Counted from the first letter of the stretch, positions 5,641-8,717 are shown. The stretch is DNA of 45,585 nt from a virus (IMGVR_UViG_648276647_000019:1-45585), one strand, 5' to 3'. Numbers and translations are program-made. Notes: generated by a model from the letters alone, not told the origin.

Positions 5641-7421
5641 ACAGTTTAACGGCAAATAACCGTTTGTCGCAACAGCTGGTGGTCAGCGTCGCTGAACACC
5701 TGTTGTTACGGCATGAATGCAGATTACCAAATCACCTGGCTGTAAGTAACCACAGAGAACTTTACCTGACTGTGGGGGGCGAGTTGTGCAGGAACTTAAC
5801 CGCTGGTTTCGTGACGGAAGAGGGCTTTATGTTCATGTTATTCGTTGGGAACCAGAAACACAGCGCGTTATCTATCTTCGCAAAGACTACCCGCATGAGT
5901 GCTTTAGTCCTTTGTGGAAATTCAGGCGTGATTTTGTTGAGTGTGAAGGACCACCCGCACATTGATTCTGCCATTCCGGGACGTTACACTGTTCAGGCAC
6001 CTTATAAAGCGGGTGCCGGGCGTGAGAACCCGGAATTCACCAAAGCGCACAACCGCGCTCTTGCGGTTTTTTTGTGTCATGAGCAGCATTACGCCCAAAT
6101 TATGGTGGGGCGTGCAGGGCCAACTTCGGTTGGGCCGGGTTCTTTGGTGACCGGTTTCTCACCCCTGTACGTCTCACCACCTATTGCCGTGAGAAGCCTT
6201 GGTGGTGAGTTATTAAAAATCACCAAAGAGGCTGCCATCATGGCTACGATCCCAACCCTCACTCAACCTGACATCACGATTATCAACGGTCGTGTTGTCA
6301 CCACATCTCTTGCAGTTGCTAACTACTTTACTAAACGACATGAGCGAGTTTTAGATAGAATTCGAAACCTAGAATGCTCCGCTGAATTTACTGAACACAA
6401 TTTTGTGTTAAGTGAATACACTGACGCATCAGGCCGCAAACTACCTTGCTATCAAATAACCCGCGACGGCTTTGCGTTTCTTGCTATGGGTTTCACGGGT
6501 AAACGTGCTGCCCAGTTCAAAGAGGCATACATCAATGCCTTTAACCAGATGGAGAAACGCTGCATTACGGCGTTATCCCTTTTTGACTATCTCCGCTTGT
6601 TGCGCCTTGCTGGTGTTCCGGGTTATATTTCTCGCGTTGCTGTAAATCCAGCAACCGGGTTTAGCAGCCCGGAACACATCACAGCGCACAACCGCGCCTG
6701 CGGTTTTTTTGTGTGCAATGCCCGGTCACATCTGAATTATGGTGGCCTGGGTAGGGGAGCCGAAAGGCTCGCCGGGTTCTGTGATGACCGGTCTGCTAAC
6801 CCTGCTCAGGTCACCACCAGTTGTTTAGCAGCAGCTTGTGGTGATAAGTCAAAACTCATCACAGGGGCTGTCGTTATGACTACCATCCCAACCCTCGCTC
6901 AACCTGAACTTTGTGTTATTGATGGCAAAGTCGTTACTTCTTCGCTGGCTGTTGCCGATTATTTCCATAAACCCCACAAAGACGTACTGGCAAAAATTTC
7001 TCGTCTGGATTGTTCAGTTGAATTTACCGAGCGAAATTTCTCGCTCAGCAAATACATCGATGTAACTGGTCGTAAGTTACCGTGCTATCACATCACTAAA
7101 AACGGCTTCGCGTTCCTGGCTATGAGTTTTACTGGCAAGCGAGCGGCTCGTTTTAAAGAGGCGTACATAAACGCCTTTGACCAGATGGAGAAACAGCTTT
7201 CAACTCCATCGGTGCTGAGCGATGTAGCACATAATGCCAGCGTTCTTTATTCCTACATTTCATCCATTCATCAGGTCTGGTTACAGCAGCTTTATCCCAT
7301 GCTGGAAAAAGCTGAATCACCGCTGGCTGTAAGTCTGTATGACCGAATTAACGATGCGGCATTTCTTGCCCGTCTTATCCATTCGTCACTGAACCCTTCA
7401 GAGGTAAGGGGGCGCAAATGA
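5637..7421 (+). CDS. Rha-family phage regulatory/antirepressor protein, continuous ORF containing two Rha domains (internal candidate starts at 6240 and 6876)
   Basis: ATG at 5637 overlaps the upstream stop (ATGA) with a GGAGAAA RBS; two Rha-like domains (TIPTLTQP...FKEAYINAFxQMEK) lie in one frame with no stop until 7421. Whether this is one protein or several is unresolved. Confidence 0.5.
   Translation: MNSLTANNRLSQQLVVSVAEHLLLRHECRLPNHLAVSNHRELYLTVGGELCRNLTAGFVTEEGFMFMLFVGNQKHSALSIFAKTTRMSALVLCGNSGVILLSVKDHPHIDSAIPGRYTVQAPYKAGAGRENPEFTKAHNRALAVFLCHEQHYAQIMVGRAGPTSVGPGSLVTGFSPLYVSPPIAVRSLGGELLKITKEAAIMATIPTLTQPDITIINGRVVTTSLAVANYFTKRHERVLDRIRNLECSAEFTEHNFVLSEYTDASGRKLPCYQITRDGFAFLAMGFTGKRAAQFKEAYINAFNQMEKRCITALSLFDYLRLLRLAGVPGYISRVAVNPATGFSSPEHITAHNRACGFFVCNARSHLNYGGLGRGAERLAGFCDDRSANPAQVTTSCLAAACGDKSKLITGAVVMTTIPTLAQPELCVIDGKVVTSSLAVADYFHKPHKDVLAKISRLDCSVEFTERNFSLSKYIDVTGRKLPCYHITKNGFAFLAMSFTGKRAARFKEAYINAFDQMEKQLSTPSVLSDVAHNASVLYSYISSIHQVWLQQLYPMLEKAESPLAVSLYDRINDAAFLARLIHSSLNPSEVRGRK
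5966..6239 (+). repeat. Structured repeat unit 1 preceding rha copy 1
   Basis: Contains terminator-like AACCGC-loop-GCGGUUUUUUU (about 6046-6072), hairpin ACGCCC/GGGCGU, cUUCGg tetraloop hairpin (6116-6140), CCGGGTTC, and UCACCACC/GGUGGUGA helix. Confidence 0.6.
6600..6875 (+). repeat. Structured repeat unit 2 preceding rha copy 2
   Basis: Same element order as unit 1; terminator-like hairpin about 6682-6708; GNRA (GAAA) tetraloop hairpin GGAGCC/GGCUC in place of the UUCG hairpin; second helix kept via a G-U pair. Confidence 0.6.
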
Positions 7422-7612
7422 ATCGTTACGAAATCGTTCTTACTACAACGGAATATTTTAACGATAAACCTGTTAGAGCAGAGTCAGTACTGTACTGGCG
7501 TCGTTATAAATCCCGTAAGGCAGCGGAGCATAAGGCCGCCAGGATGTGCGAAACCATCGCCATGAAAGGTAGTCCGGTTAAATATGTTACTACGGCGGAG
7601 GTGCGCCCATGA
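7418..7612 (+). CDS. Hypothetical small protein (64 aa)
   Basis: ATG overlaps upstream stop (ATGA); GAGG-type RBS upstream. Confidence 0.5.
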   Translation: MNRYEIVLTTTEYFNDKPVRAESVLYWRRYKSRKAAEHKAARMCETIAMKGSPVKYVTTAEVRP

Positions 7613-7833
7613 TCCGTCGCATCGTTTATTTCCTGTACCACAAATACAACCGTATCCCTCGTCCCGGGCAGTGGTACACCACGCCCGCAGGACATGTTCT
7701 ACGCGTCAGCCTGGTGGACCGTGAATGTCAGAAGGTGATTTGTGAACCGCTGGGCCGTAATTACCGCGTCAGTATGCCGCTTATAGCCTTTCGCTCCGGA
7801 AAAAACATGAAGCATCTCGGAGGTGCAGCATGA
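7609..7833 (+). CDS. Hypothetical small protein (74 aa)
   Basis: ATG overlaps upstream stop (ATGA); GGAGGTG RBS. Confidence 0.5.
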   Translation: MIRRIVYFLYHKYNRIPRPGQWYTTPAGHVLRVSLVDRECQKVICEPLGRNYRVSMPLIAFRSGKNMKHLGGAA

Positions 7834-8717
7834 GTATGGAGCTGATGGTTAAGATGATCATGAGCAAACCAGTAATGATTGATTCTGATAATTCTGGGCG
7901 TTATATTGTTCTGGCAGCGGCAAAATCCGTTGCCGGGATTGGCGTCCTGAAATTGATTACTGAGCATAACCGCGCTCATGCGGTTTTTTCGTGTCATGAG
8001 CATTGCTACGCCCAAATTATGGTGGGGCGTACAGGGCCGACTTCGGTCGGGCCGGGTTCGGTAGTCTCCGGTAACGCCAACCCTGTACGTCTCACCACCT
8101 CTGTGATTGGCGTCCCATGTGGTGAGTTTTCTGAAAAACTGACTACCGGGGCTGTCACCATGACTACTCTCCCAACCCTCACTCAACCTGAAATTGCCAT
8201 CGTTGATGGTCAGGCTGTTACATCTTCTTTGGCTGTTGCTGACTTCTTCTCTAAACGTCATGACGATGTACTGAAAAAGATCCGCATTTTGGATTGTTCT
8301 CCAGAGTTTTGTGCCCGCAATTTTGCGGAGACATCAATTTTGGTACACCAGCCCAACGGCGGTACTCGCAAACTTCCTTGCTACCACATCACCCGCGACG
8401 GCTTCGCGTTCCTGGCAATGGGCTTCACTGGCAAACGTGCAACCCAGTTCAAGGAGGCATACATCAATGCCTTTAACCAGATGGAAAAGGCGCTGATCGG
8501 AAAGGTTGATAATTCATGTGTCGCGCACAATGCCCATGTTGTTTACCTCTACATGGCTGAAATTCACCGCGTCTGGTTAGAACAACTTTATCCGATGCTG
8601 GTTTCAGCTCAGTCGCCGCTGGCTTCATCACTCTACGACTACATCAACGATGGTGTATTCGTTGCCGGGCTGGTGGACTCGGAACTGAACGAAAAGCATA
8701 AGGAGGTGCGTAAGTGA
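7830..8717 (+). CDS. Rha-family phage regulatory/antirepressor protein (295 aa; Rha domain from internal Met at 8160)
   Basis: Strong RBS GGAGGTG before ATG 7830, overlapping the upstream stop; Rha-like core plus a C-terminal domain shared with copy 2. Confidence 0.7.
   Translation: MSMELMVKMIMSKPVMIDSDNSGRYIVLAAAKSVAGIGVLKLITEHNRAHAVFSCHEHCYAQIMVGRTGPTSVGPGSVVSGNANPVRLTTSVIGVPCGEFSEKLTTGAVTMTTLPTLTQPEIAIVDGQAVTSSLAVADFFSKRHDDVLKKIRILDCSPEFCARNFAETSILVHQPNGGTRKLPCYHITRDGFAFLAMGFTGKRATQFKEAYINAFNQMEKALIGKVDNSCVAHNAHVVYLYMAEIHRVWLEQLYPMLVSAQSPLASSLYDYINDGVFVAGLVDSELNEKHKEVRK
7880..8159 (+). repeat. Structured repeat unit 3 (near-identical to unit 1)
   Basis: Terminator-like hairpin about 7966-7992; the UUCG hairpin carries a compensatory pair change relative to unit 1 (CAAC/GUUG to CGAC/GUCG). 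Confidence 0.6.

What the first reader, a model, noticed from the sequence alone, without database searches (positions are those of the whole stretch)
5966..8160. Three paralogous structured elements with compensatory base changes precede three tandem rha-family genes
Each of the three Rha-domain starts (6240, 6876, 8160) is preceded by about 200-300 nt with the same element order: a terminator-like hairpin AACCGC-loop-GCGGUUUUUUU with variable loop (about 6046-6072, 6682-6708, 7966-7992); a hairpin with conserved loop AAUUAUGGUGG (stem ACGCCC/GGGCGU in units 1 and 3, CCCGG/CUGGG with a G-U pair in unit 2); a tetraloop hairpin that is GGCCAAC-UUCG-GUUGGCC in unit 1, GGCCGAC-UUCG-GUCGGCC in unit 3 (a compensatory pair change) and GGAGCC-GAAA-GGCUC in unit 2 (different sequence, GNRA loop, same position); conserved CCGGGUUC...ACCGG; and a UCACCACC/GGUGGUGA helix with unrelated loops. 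Conservation of pairing across different primary sequence, use of G-U pairs, and canonical UUCG/GNRA tetraloops argue for selection on RNA secondary structure. I cannot assign it to a known RNA family.
Basis: seen in the sequence. Interest (0 to 1): 0.8.

Follow-up and report, generated by a model that had tools for sequence, protein, structure and literature searches.

The report
Three IsrK–C4 RNA switches gating Rha
The three repeated structured elements are copies of an already known phage RNA switch (an IsrK decoy RNA followed by a C4 antisense RNA, as in phages P1, P4 and Gifsy-1), each placed before an antirepressor-like Rha gene; the unusual part is that three copies are stacked in a row, each with its own recognition sequence.

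Summary
The elements do belong to known families. Each unit is an Rfam isrK RNA (RF01394, 64-71 bits) ending in an intrinsic terminator, followed by a C4 antisense RNA (RF01695, 82-85 bits).

In every unit, two single-stranded boxes of C4 (b' in the hairpin-2 loop, a' in the 3' junction) are complementary to a1/b1 inside IsrK. They are also complementary to a2/b2 just upstream of rha, and b2 runs into the Shine-Dalgarno sequence. The boxes differ between the three units but match within each unit: cognate runs are 7-11 bp, and 17 of 24 non-cognate combinations are 4 bp or less (longest 8 bp with G-U pairs). Across 66 homologues the same three-way covariation holds.

This is the P1 immI / P4 seqA-CI-seqC / Gifsy-1 IsrK-orf45-AnrP layout. 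It sits here between cII and the replication gene of a lambda-like prophage.

New points are modest:
- The array has three modules. About 10% of related viral contigs carry 2-4 modules, always with different b' boxes.
- The gated gene is Rha.
- A reading frame is kept open through the RNAs without selection on the amino acids. This is annotated as the Pfam "Ash" domain, which is the conceptual translation of these RNA genes.

The parts
5962..5990 (+). Unit 1 promoter-like site: TTGATT (5962-5967), 17-nt spacer, TACACT (5985-5990), 6 nt before the IsrK 5' end
   Evidence: Read from the sequence. The same -35/-10 arrangement at a fixed distance is found in 64 of 77 distinct homologous upstream regions. 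It is below the strict threshold of the consensus scan. Promoter activity is inferred.
5997..6073 (+). Unit 1 IsrK-like RNA. It holds a1 (GUGAGAA, 6022-6028, in the hairpin-2 loop), b1 (UCACCAAAG, 6037-6045) and an intrinsic terminator (6051-6068 plus U run).
   Evidence: Rfam RF01394, 63.6 bits against a gathering score of 50. Terminator scan. Box complementarity.
6098..6184 (+). Unit 1 C4 antisense RNA. b' lies in the hairpin-2 loop (6140-6150) and a' in the 3' junction (6153-6162).
   Evidence: Rfam RF01695, 83.4 bits against a gathering score of 45. The minimum-free-energy fold equals the Rfam fold, -44.2 kcal/mol, z = -4.95.
6189..6239 (+). Unit 1 target region: a2 (6189-6198) and b2 (6220-6230, UCACCAAAGAG), which overlaps the rha1 Shine-Dalgarno GAGG
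   Evidence: Contiguous complementarity of 10 and 11 bp to a' and b'.
6240..6560 (+). rha1: Phage_pRha N-terminal domain only. It has no stop codon of its own. The frame runs on through unit 2 to 7421.
   Evidence: Pfam PF09669. ORF list. 66-69% identity to Rha2 and Rha3 over 107 aa. The same junction occurs in L022.
6600..6629 (+). Unit 2 promoter-like site: TTGCGC, 18-nt spacer, TATATT (6624-6629). The -35 is weak.
   Evidence: Read from the sequence. Inferred only.
6636..6710 (+). Unit 2 IsrK-like RNA. It holds a1 (UUAGCAG, 6661-6667), b1 (CAUCACAG, 6677-6684) and a terminator (6690-6705 plus U run).
   Evidence: Rfam RF01394, 70.8 bits. RF03163 c4-a1b1, 53.2 bits at 6623-6675. Terminator scan.
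6735..6821 (+). Unit 2 C4 antisense RNA. b' is at 6777-6787 and a' (CUGCUAA) at 6793-6799.
   Evidence: Rfam RF01695, 85.2 bits. Minimum-free-energy fold -49.0 kcal/mol, z = -5.48.
6825..6875 (+). Unit 2 target region: a2 (UUAGCAG, 6825-6831) and b2 (UCAUCACAGGG, 6856-6866), which overlaps the rha2 Shine-Dalgarno
6876..7421 (+). rha2: full-length Rha-family protein, 181 aa
   Evidence: Pfam PF09669. PHROG 821, 518 and 63, annotated as transcriptional regulator, Rha-like and anti-repressor Ant.
7879..7907 (+). Unit 3 promoter-like site: TTGATT, 17-nt spacer, TATATT
   Evidence: This is the only sigma-70 consensus hit in 4700-9000.
7914..7990 (+). Unit 3 IsrK-like RNA. It holds a1 (UUGGCGU, 7939-7945), b1 (GAUUACUGAGC, 7955-7965) and a terminator (7968-7985 plus U run).
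   Evidence: Rfam RF01394, 68.6 bits. c4-a1b1 scores 44.3 bits, just under the gathering score. Terminator scan.
8015..8102 (+). Unit 3 C4 antisense RNA. b' is at 8057-8066 and a' (ACGCCAA) at 8074-8080.
   Evidence: Rfam RF01695, 82.3 bits. Minimum-free-energy fold -47.7 kcal/mol, z = -6.02.
8107..8159 (+). Unit 3 target region: a2 (UUGGCGU, 8107-8113) and b2 (GACUACCGGG, 8141-8150), which overlaps the rha3 Shine-Dalgarno
8160..8717 (+). rha3: full-length Rha-family protein, 185 aa
   Evidence: Pfam PF09669. PHROGs. tblastn finds relatives annotated as Rha or antirepressor.

Best explanation
Each unit is an IsrK-C4 antisense module of the P1 immI / P4 immunity / Gifsy-1 isrK type, gating an antirepressor-like Rha gene.

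Proposed working:
1. A sigma-70-type promoter starts transcription at the IsrK 5' end.
2. Most transcripts stop at the IsrK intrinsic terminator. This gives a roughly 77-nt IsrK RNA that displays box a1 in a hairpin loop and box b1 in the linker.
3. Read-through transcripts carry the C4 RNA. C4 has a 17-bp closing stem, a tetraloop hairpin, a second hairpin whose loop is b', and a 3' junction that is a'. Downstream lie a2 and b2, and b2 overlaps the rha Shine-Dalgarno.
4. C4 acts either after processing (by RNase P in P1 and P4) or in cis. It pairs a'/b' with a2/b2, blocks ribosome binding and keeps Rha off. Rho-dependent polarity may follow.
5. IsrK carries the same targets (a1/b1), so it competes for C4. 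When IsrK is in excess it frees the rha ribosome-binding site, as IsrK does for AnrP in Gifsy-1.
6. Because the a and b boxes differ between the three units, the three switches should mostly act independently.

Shown here: family membership, structure, covariation, box complementarity, overlap of b2 with the Shine-Dalgarno, and separation of the box sequences between units.
Inferred from the characterised relatives: transcription, termination, processing, translational repression, and the decoy action of IsrK.
For: Family membership: the Rfam hits are far above gathering scores in all three units.

Structure and covariation:
- On the 66-sequence alignment the Rfam structure is 96.4% paired, with 22 pairs changed on both sides.
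- a1:a' is 100% paired, and 6 of 7 pairs change on both sides. b1:b' is 95% paired. The covariation score is 0.77 against 0.20 for shuffles.
- a2/b2:a'/b' are 81% paired against 66% for shuffles.
- About 28 different box combinations were found, each matched at b1, b2, a1 and a2 at fixed positions, with b2 ending in GAG/GGG of the Shine-Dalgarno.

Within the window:
- Cognate complementarity is 7-11 bp (-7 to -14 kcal/mol per box). 17 of 24 non-cognate combinations reach 4 bp or less; the longest non-cognate run is 8 bp with G-U pairs (-3.8 kcal/mol) and the most stable non-cognate duplex is -7.1 kcal/mol.
- Terminators are present. The promoter-like site is conserved in homologues.

Downstream genes: they are Rha-family, related to Ant antirepressors.

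Characterised relatives share the layout:
- Gifsy-1 has isrK, then C4, then a b2 box over the anrP Shine-Dalgarno.
- P4 seqA and CI RNA are the isrK and C4 hits there.

Published mechanism:
- IsrK acts in trans to activate translation of the read-through mRNA, and a processed RNA, STnc1160, lies downstream of IsrK (PMC4825925).
- c4 regulates ant through complementary regions (citing Citron and Schuster 1990).
- C4 and CI precursors are RNase P substrates (PMC5499578).
- The 'IsrK-C4 immunity system' is named in PMC3632133.
Against: - There are no expression data for this locus.
- Unit 1 gates a truncated rha (N-domain only, no stop codon), so it may be a recombination remnant.
- The unit 2 promoter has a weak -35.
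- c4-a1b1 passes its Rfam threshold only in unit 2.
- The Gifsy-1 authors explain activation through alternative folds and an upstream ORF (orf45), not through a simple decoy. In their hands, co-expressing the C4-containing fragment did not relieve IsrK toxicity. The balance between cis refolding and trans antisense action is therefore open.
- In P4 the main output is premature transcription termination, not block of one gene.
- Some partial cross-complementarity exists: a' of unit 2 against the a box of unit 3 (6 bp), and b' of unit 1 against b1 of unit 3 (8 bp with G-U pairs).
Confidence: 0.8

Rival explanations
1. The 200-300 nt before each Rha domain are simply coding sequence: an N-terminal 'Ash' protein domain of a long Rha protein, as annotated by NCBI's annotation pipeline (PGAP) and by Pfam. 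On this view the RNA similarity is incidental.
For: - The long ORFs 5637-7421 and 7830-8717 read through the elements in frame with rha.
- Pfam Phage_ASH hits the translated region, E about 1e-14 to 1e-15.
- RefSeq and GenBank annotate 298-385 aa 'Rha' CDSs of this kind.
- These ORFs start with ATGA overlaps on the previous gene.
- 49 of 65 distinct homologues have no in-frame stop, and indels are compensated to multiples of 3.
Against: - pN/pS is 0.9-1.35 in the RNA part against 0.5-0.7 in rha. 'Synonymous' sites are 5-8 times more conserved than in rha.
- Variation shows no excess at third codon positions.
- Unit 2 is read in a different frame across C4 and does not hit Ash.
- The variable boxes covary with distant RNA partners, not as codons.
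- In P4 the Ash profile matches the obsolete 'cI protein' ORF lying over the CI RNA, which is known to be an RNA. It does not match epsilon.
- In unit 1 the frame overlaps a real DUF4222 gene in another frame.
Confidence: 0.03
2. The modules work mainly as a P4-type immunity device on transcription. C4 pairing with the a/b sites, together with the three IsrK terminators, causes premature termination of rightward early transcripts. The main controlled output would then be the downstream replication genes (O-like gene at 8714), with Rha secondary.
For: - The array lies between the cII-like gene (5077-5640) and the O-like gene with iterons (8714-9655; iterons 9023-9086), all on one strand.
- There are three intrinsic terminators in series.
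- P4 uses the homologous seqA-CI-seqC set to stop transcription of its replication genes.
- A P4-like class of homologues has the module upstream of a primase gene.
Against: - In all three units b2 sits exactly on the rha Shine-Dalgarno, which points to translational control of rha itself.
- In Gifsy-1 the module lies after Q, not before replication genes, and controls AnrP translation.
- This rival is not exclusive of the best explanation.
Confidence: 0.2
3. The array is a product of recombination between related prophages, and only part of it works. Unit 1 (truncated rha1, no stop codon) would be a dead remnant. The differences between the boxes would be inherited from the parental phages, not selected for within this phage.
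For: - rha1 lacks the C-terminal domain and a stop codon. It is followed by about 45 nt of unrelated sequence with a terminator-like hairpin.
- Units 1 and 3 occur as a pair in L063, and the unit 1-2 junction occurs in L022 with a different first module.
- The a and b boxes are shuffled among homologues.
Against: - The RNA parts of unit 1 are intact and score as high as the others.
- Its a1/b1/a'/b'/a2/b2 boxes all still match.
- The same truncated junction is kept at 90% identity in another contig.
- In all 11 multi-copy loci found, the b' boxes of co-resident units differ. This would not be expected if arrays were random debris.
Confidence: 0.2

Closest known systems
Gifsy-1 (Salmonella) isrK - STnc1160/orf45 - anrP locus (Hershko-Shalev et al. 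2016, PMC4825925)
   Same: - The order is the same: promoter, IsrK with terminator, C4-like RNA, a2/b2, then an antirepressor-like gene.
- Rfam isrK, C4 and c4-a1b1 all hit.
- b2 overlaps the Shine-Dalgarno of the downstream gene.
- The conserved AAUUAUGG holds the orf45 start codon.
- The Gifsy-1 a box (UUGGCGU/ACGCCAA) is identical to that of window unit 3.
- The alternative fold is the same (cis a1b1:a'b' pairing plus a hairpin over the AUG) (one search compared).
   Different: - Gifsy-1 has a single module. It lies downstream of the Q antiterminator gene, not between cII and the replication genes.
- The gated protein AnrP has an ORF6N domain, not Rha.
- orf45 ends with UGA overlapping the anrP AUG, which is translational coupling. 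In window units 1 and 3 the same AUG is in frame with rha with no stop. In unit 2 it gives a 29-codon ORF.
Phage P1/P7 immI operon: a1 b1 - c4 - a2 b2 - icd - ant1/2 (Citron and Schuster 1990; Rfam RF01695 and RF03163)
   Same: - A C4 antisense RNA carries a' and b' boxes matched to an upstream and a downstream target pair.
- The downstream pair covers a ribosome-binding site.
- The output is an antirepressor.
- Specificity differs between related phages (P1 against P7; from my own knowledge).
- The precursor is cut by RNase P.
   Different: - In P1 the blocked ribosome-binding site belongs to icd, and ant is controlled through coupling and polarity (from my own knowledge). Here the site belongs to rha itself.
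- I did not examine the P1 sequence here.
- P1 has one module. Here there are three with different boxes.
Satellite phage P4 immunity: seqA - CI RNA (seqB) - seqC
   Same: - The Rfam isrK hit is seqA and the C4 hit is the CI RNA (PMC3632133).
- The P4 a box (GUGAGAA/UUCUCAC) is identical to that of window unit 1.
- The same conceptual ORF runs over the RNA and hits Pfam Phage_ASH.
   Different: - In P4 the output is premature termination of the operon that encodes the replication genes.
- No Rha gene follows.
- P4-like homologues in the sample have in-frame stops and a total length that is not a multiple of 3.
Single IsrK-C4-Rha modules of E. coli and Salmonella lambdoid phages (mEp460, cdtI, ST64B, several Stx phages)
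   Same: - The module and position are the same (ymfL/cII - module - Rha - small ORF - replication gene), at 80-90% DNA identity.
- The RNAs are not annotated. The CDS is annotated as a long Rha or 'antirepressor' protein.
   Different: These phages have one module only. No complete E. coli genome (5,426 genomes) and no record of the phage collection covers 80% or more of the three-module region.

Membership tests
Rfam RF01695 C4 antisense RNA | Covariance-model score at or above the gathering threshold (45 bits), full length | tested here: met
   85.2, 83.4 and 82.3 bits, model positions 1-87 of 87, in all three units.
Rfam RF01695 C4 antisense RNA | Fold: long closing stem enclosing a tetraloop hairpin and a second hairpin with a large loop, supported by covariation | tested here: met
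   The minimum-free-energy fold of each element equals the model, z = -5 to -6. On 66 homologues the closing stem and hairpin 1 are 100% paired, with 8 and 5 pairs changed on both sides.
P1 immI-type c4 system | a' and b' boxes of C4 complementary to an upstream pair (a1, b1) and a downstream pair (a2, b2) | tested here: met
   7-11 bp contiguous complementarity in each unit. Covariation across about 28 box combinations.
P1 immI-type c4 system | The downstream target covers the ribosome-binding site of the next ORF | tested here: met
   b2 ends in the GAGG/GGGG located 9-10 nt before each rha ATG.
P1 immI-type c4 system | Mature roughly 77-nt C4 released from a precursor by RNase P; translational repression and polarity in vivo | not testable with these tools
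   Known for P1/P7 and P4. No transcript data for this locus.
P1 immI-type c4 system | The controlled gene encodes an antirepressor-type protein | tested here: inconclusive
   The genes are Rha family (PF09669) and match PHROGs named anti-repressor or Ant. Antirepressor activity of these proteins is not shown.
Rfam RF01394 isrK | Covariance-model score at or above the gathering threshold (50 bits) | tested here: met
   63.6, 70.8 and 68.6 bits, model positions 1-77 of 77.
Rfam RF01394 isrK | Two 5' hairpins and a Rho-independent terminator | tested here: met
   Terminator scan hits at 6051, 6690 and 7968. Helices are 88-97% paired with changes on both sides in homologues.
Gifsy-1 IsrK system | Own promoter giving a short IsrK and a read-through mRNA; IsrK activates translation in trans; Hfq binding | not testable with these tools
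   Only promoter-like hexamers at the expected distance were found. The function is known from PMC4825925.
Gifsy-1 IsrK system | Upstream ORF (orf45) starting at the AUG of AAUUAUGG and translationally coupled to the antirepressor gene | tested here: not met
   The AUG is invariant. In units 1 and 3 it is fused in frame to rha. In unit 2 it ends 48 nt before rha2. No AUGA-type coupling is present.
Rfam RF03163 c4-a1b1 | Score at or above the gathering threshold (46.7 bits) | tested here: inconclusive
   Unit 2 scores 53.2 bits (met). Unit 3 scores 44.3 and unit 1 scores 21.8 (below threshold), at the homologous positions. The a1 and b1 boxes themselves are present in all three.
Pfam PF09669 Phage_pRha | Domain score above the Pfam cut-off | tested here: met
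   E = 9e-61 (two copies) in ORF 5637-7421 and E = 1e-26 in ORF 7830-8717.
Pfam PF10554 Phage_ASH (as a protein domain) | Sequence under protein-level selection and translated | tested here: not met
   The profile matches. However, pN/pS is about 1 or higher and nucleotides are conserved at all codon positions. Unit 2 is read in another frame. In P4 the match lies on the CI RNA. Translation itself was not tested.

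The most novel reading that the evidence does not exclude
The array is a multiplexed RNA immunity / anti-immunity device. Three largely independent IsrK-C4 channels each gate a different Rha paralogue, so the phage can respond separately to, or escape from, co-resident prophages and P4-like satellites that carry matching boxes. 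Unit 1 shares its a box with P4 and unit 3 shares its a box with Gifsy-1.

In addition, the reading frame that runs from the upstream gene through IsrK, its terminator and C4 into rha is kept open by selection. This shows as no in-frame stops and as -1/-2 indels compensated to multiples of 3, while the amino-acid sequence is free to vary. The proposed reason is that ribosomes travelling on early (pR) transcripts must pass through. They would melt the terminator and C4 folds and so override the switches during lytic growth.
Probability: 0.2. Interest if true: 0.65.

Novelty: new variant of a known kind. Interest (0 to 1): 0.35.

Why it matters
It turns an 'unknown structured RNA' into a known, experimentally tractable switch, and it corrects how these loci are annotated. 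In many E. coli and Salmonella prophages, including Stx phages, the IsrK and C4 RNAs are hidden inside long 'Rha/Ash' protein annotations. The Pfam Ash family, which has been used as a protein marker in published surveys, appears to be the translation of these RNA genes.

The tandem arrays with different b' boxes have not been described in the literature I could search. If they are functional, they would be a natural example of several parallel antisense channels controlling antirepressor-like genes. That bears on prophage induction, heteroimmunity and phage-satellite conflict.

The open reading frame kept through the RNAs is a small unexplained puzzle about overlapping RNA and translational constraints.

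Tried and rejected
- tRNA/tmRNA scan of the window: none, so the elements are not tRNA-like genes.
- RNAduplex of whole C4 sub-regions against whole flanks was dominated by pairing between the conserved GCCGG/CCGGG stems, so it gave an uninformative matrix. I replaced it with box-only comparisons.
- Protein-coding reading of the elements: rejected on pN/pS, on codon-position entropy and on the frame shift in unit 2.
- Extra target sites for the three C4 RNAs elsewhere in the window: only isolated 7-8-mers at chance level, and no a+b pair.
- Search for the same three-module region in 5,426 E. coli genomes and in the phage collection: only single modules.
- Exact 28-mer of the rha1/unit 2 junction in GTDB representative genomes: no match. 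The source organism stays unknown. The window is a lambda-like prophage about 85% identical to mEp460, PhiR47_1 and cdtI.
- The C4 pattern in representative genomes gave 13 scattered hits (Erwinia, Pseudomonas, Xenorhabdus and others), which did not reveal the source.
- A literature search for tandem IsrK/C4/Rha arrays found nothing relevant.
- I considered an AlphaFold test of the 'Ash' region and dropped it, because RNA-stem covariation could mimic residue contacts and the result would not be decisive.
- PADLOC on neighbouring unknown ORFs: no hits.

Full report
**What is there**

Window 5960-8160 holds three paralogous units of about 245 nt. Each ends at the ATG of an Rha-domain gene (6240, 6876, 8160). 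The units align at 78% mean column identity.

A scan of the whole window against Rfam gives two curated families in every unit. The first is isrK (RF01394) at 5997-6073, 6636-6710 and 7914-7990, scoring 64-71 bits against a gathering score of 50. About 25 nt further on comes C4 antisense RNA (RF01695) at 6098-6184, 6735-6821 and 8015-8102, scoring 82-85 bits against a gathering score of 45. The c4-a1b1 motif (RF03163) overlaps the 5' part of each isrK hit. It is above threshold only in unit 2 (53.2 bits) and below it in units 3 and 1 (44.3 and 21.8 bits). No tRNA or tmRNA gene is present.

The reported sequences are all there.
- The terminator hairpins are the IsrK terminators.
- The tetraloop hairpin is hairpin 1 of C4. 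Its stem is 5 bp, not 7.
- 'CCGGGUUC...ACCGG' is hairpin 2 of C4, with a variable 12-nt loop.

That stem dominates the fold. Each isolated element folds exactly as the Rfam model, at -44 to -49 kcal/mol and z = -5 to -6.

In homologues they are 90% and 93.5% paired, with little covariation. The first of them appears in the centroid fold of the full leader, together with cis pairing of a1/b1 with a'/b'. That conformer corresponds to the translationally inactive 'structure A', with a hairpin over the orf45 start, described for Gifsy-1.

**The key anatomy**

Two single-stranded stretches of each C4 are complementary to two boxes inside the IsrK upstream and to two boxes downstream. The C4 stretches are the hairpin-2 loop (b') and the junction 3' of it (a'). 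The upstream boxes are a1, in the hairpin-2 loop of IsrK, and b1, in the linker. The downstream boxes are a2, 5-8 nt after C4, and b2, which runs into the GAGG/GGGG Shine-Dalgarno of rha. The runs are 7-11 contiguous bp.

The box sequences differ between units:

| Unit | a box | b box |
|---|---|---|
| 1 | GUGAGAA | UCACCAAAG |
| 2 | UUAGCAG | CAUCACAG |
| 3 | UUGGCGU | GACUACCG / GAUUACUG |

Within each unit all of a1, a', a2 and b1, b', b2 match. Cognate box pairs give -7 to -14 kcal/mol. 17 of 24 non-cognate combinations reach 4 bp or less; the longest non-cognate run is 8 bp with G-U pairs (-3.8 kcal/mol) and the most stable non-cognate duplex is -7.1 kcal/mol. No further a+b target pair exists elsewhere in the window.

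**Evidence from relatives**

Among 74 distinct sequences there are about 28 different (b', a') combinations. In every one, the matching b1, b2, a1 and a2 sit at fixed positions.

Results on a 66-sequence alignment:
- The Rfam structure is 96.4% paired, with 22 pairs changed on both sides. No shuffle out of 500 and no slid control approaches this.
- a1:a' is 100% paired, and 6 of 7 pairs change on both sides.
- b1:b' is 95% paired. The covariation score is 0.77 against 0.20 for shuffles.
- The a2/b2 interaction is 81% paired against 66% for shuffles, despite alignment gaps.

A promoter-like TTGATT-17-TACACT/TATATT lies 6 nt before the IsrK 5' end. It is kept in 64 of 77 distinct upstream regions.

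**What it is**

This is the layout of three characterised systems:
- the P1/P7 immI operon (a1 b1 - c4 - a2 b2 - antirepressor);
- P4 immunity (seqA - CI RNA - seqC);
- the Gifsy-1 isrK locus.

I checked two of these directly. In P4, the isrK hit (8615-8692) and the C4 hit (8420-8507) are seqA and the CI RNA. In Gifsy-1, isrK, C4 and c4-a1b1 precede anrP, with b2 (AUCACCGG) on its GGAGG.

The literature already states several of these points:
- IsrK and C4 are the structural homologues of seqA and CI, and lambdoid Salmonella prophages carry 'IsrK-C4' systems (PMC3632133).
- Short IsrK acts in trans on its own read-through mRNA to switch on translation of AnrP, and a processed RNA (STnc1160) lies downstream of IsrK (PMC4825925).
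- C4 and CI precursors are RNase P substrates (PMC5499578).

The Rha proteins belong to PF09669. They match PHROGs named Rha-like regulator and anti-repressor Ant. AnrP of Gifsy-1 is a different family, ORF6N.

**Likely mechanism**

Steps 1-5 are inferred from the relatives.
1. Transcription starts at the IsrK 5' end.
2. Most transcripts stop at the IsrK terminator and give short IsrK.
3. Read-through RNA carries C4 and the rha leader.
4. C4 pairs a'/b' with a2/b2 and hides the rha ribosome-binding site.
5. IsrK offers the same sites (a1/b1). It titrates C4, or refolds the leader, and turns Rha on.

Family membership, the structures, the complementarities, the overlap with the Shine-Dalgarno and the covariation are shown here. 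The three units should mostly act independently because their boxes differ. A P4-like effect on read-through into the downstream replication genes is a non-exclusive alternative. The O-like gene is at 8714-9655, with iterons at 9023-9086.

**Context**

The window is a lambda-like prophage, about 85% identical to mEp460, PhiR47_1 and cdtI. The gene order is:
- a leftward S24-type repressor (4080-4754);
- a cro-like gene;
- a CII/CP76-like gene (5077-5640);
- DUF4222 (5786-5965);
- unit 1 with a truncated rha1;
- unit 2 with rha2;
- two small ORFs;
- unit 3 with rha3;
- the O-like gene, then PerC and Dam.

The usual arrangement in E. coli and Salmonella phages is a single module. No complete E. 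coli genome and no record of the phage collection holds the triple.

My own C4 covariance model, run over the first 99 fetched loci plus the window, shows that arrays are not unique to this window. Eleven of those 99 loci have two or more C4 copies, and L073 has four complete modules in tandem. In every array the b' boxes of the co-resident modules differ. L063 carries the unit 1 and unit 3 specificities side by side. L022 has the same rha1/unit 2 fusion junction. I found no paper describing such arrays.

**The coding question**

The long ORFs 5637-7421 and 7830-8717 read through the RNAs in the rha frame. Public annotations call such ORFs 298-385 aa Rha proteins. The translated RNA region hits Pfam PF10554 'Ash'.

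Evidence against selection on the protein:
- pN/pS in that frame is 0.9-1.35 in the RNA part against 0.5-0.7 in rha.
- 'Synonymous' divergence is 0.06-0.12 in the RNA part against 0.4-0.6 in rha.
- Variation shows no excess at third codon positions.
- Unit 2 is read in another frame across C4.
- In P4 the Ash profile matches the obsolete 'cI protein' ORF over the CI RNA, not epsilon, which is PF25738.

So the Ash 'domain' is the conceptual translation of IsrK/C4. One thing remains unexplained. In the Rha-linked class the frame is kept open:
- 49 of 65 distinct sequences have no in-frame stop, against 3.4-5.0 stops per sequence in the other two frames.
- Six different segment-length architectures all sum to 240, 243 or 246 nt.

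The 16 sequences with in-frame stops include 11 of one length class (254 nt, not a multiple of 3); one member of that class that I inspected (L035) has small ORFs and a 957-aa primase-like ORF downstream, resembling a P4-type satellite.

In Gifsy-1, orf45 starts at the AUG of AAUUAUGG and its translation matters for AnrP. Here the same AUG is fused in frame to rha in units 1 and 3.

**Verdict**

The finding is real and the RNA interpretation is correct. The elements are known families in a known regulatory layout. The new aspects are:
- the stacking of three modules, each with its own box sequences;
- Rha as the gated gene;
- the in-frame fusion of the leader ORF;
- the annotation consequence for the Ash family.

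Interest is moderate to low.

Noticed in passing
window 5985-6270 and 7902-8193; L123 (phage P4) 8168-8584: Pfam PF10554 (Phage_ASH) matches the conceptual translation of the IsrK terminator + C4 + a2/b2 region. In P4 it matches the obsolete 'cI gene product' ORF over the CI RNA, not the epsilon protein (which is PF25738). Published surveys use PF10554 as a protein marker (PMC8951638; bioRxiv 10.1101/2021.03.30.437493). The family looks like a translated RNA gene.
   Followed up: yes
window 5997-6239, 6636-6875, 7914-8159 and homologues in L001-L122: The rha reading frame is kept free of stops through IsrK and C4 in 49 of 65 distinct homologues. Indels of -1/-2 are compensated so that the total length stays at 240, 243 or 246 nt. 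Yet pN/pS is about 1. This suggests selection for an open frame without selection on the peptide. The cause is unknown.
   Followed up: partly
window 5786-5965: A DUF4222 gene (Pfam E = 9.5e-14) ends with its TGA inside the -35 hexamer TTGATT (5962-5967) of the unit 1 promoter-like site. It overlaps the long ORF 5637-7421 in another frame.
   Followed up: partly
window 6240-6635: rha1 keeps only the Phage_pRha N-domain. It has no stop codon and is followed by a terminator-like hairpin (6556-6574 plus a T-rich tail) before unit 2. The same junction is found in IMG/VR contig IMGVR_UViG_3300029733_000039 (L022), at about 90% identity.
   Followed up: partly
window 9023-9086: A 15-nt repeat, 4.3 copies (TCTGACCCGTCAAAA), lies inside the O-like replication gene 8714-9655. 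These are probably origin iterons, as in lambda.
   Followed up: no
window 14407-16125, minus strand: Two leftward ORFs (415 and 153 aa) sit among rightward genes. They have no Pfam or PADLOC hit and match only unknown-function PHROGs 7651 and 8552. This may be a moron or cargo cassette.
   Followed up: partly
window 6022-6028/6155-6162 and 7939-7945/8074-8080; L123; L138: The unit 1 a box (GUGAGAA/UUCUCAC) is identical to that of P4 seqA/CI. The unit 3 a box (UUGGCGU/ACGCCAA) is identical to that of Gifsy-1 IsrK/C4. The b boxes differ. Partial cross-talk with satellites or other prophages is conceivable.
   Followed up: no
L003-L122 (viral contigs): The a' and b' boxes occur in many different combinations. 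For example, one b' is found with three different a' boxes. The six boxes lie in the order a1, b1, b', a', a2, b2, so a single crossover between b' and a' would break the matching. How new matched sets arise is unclear.
   Followed up: no
L073 2300-5100, minus strand: An IMG/VR contig carries four complete IsrK-C4-Rha modules in tandem, spaced about 850 nt apart. Each annotated-style ORF (283-286 aa) starts with an ATG that overlaps the previous stop codon.
   Followed up: partly
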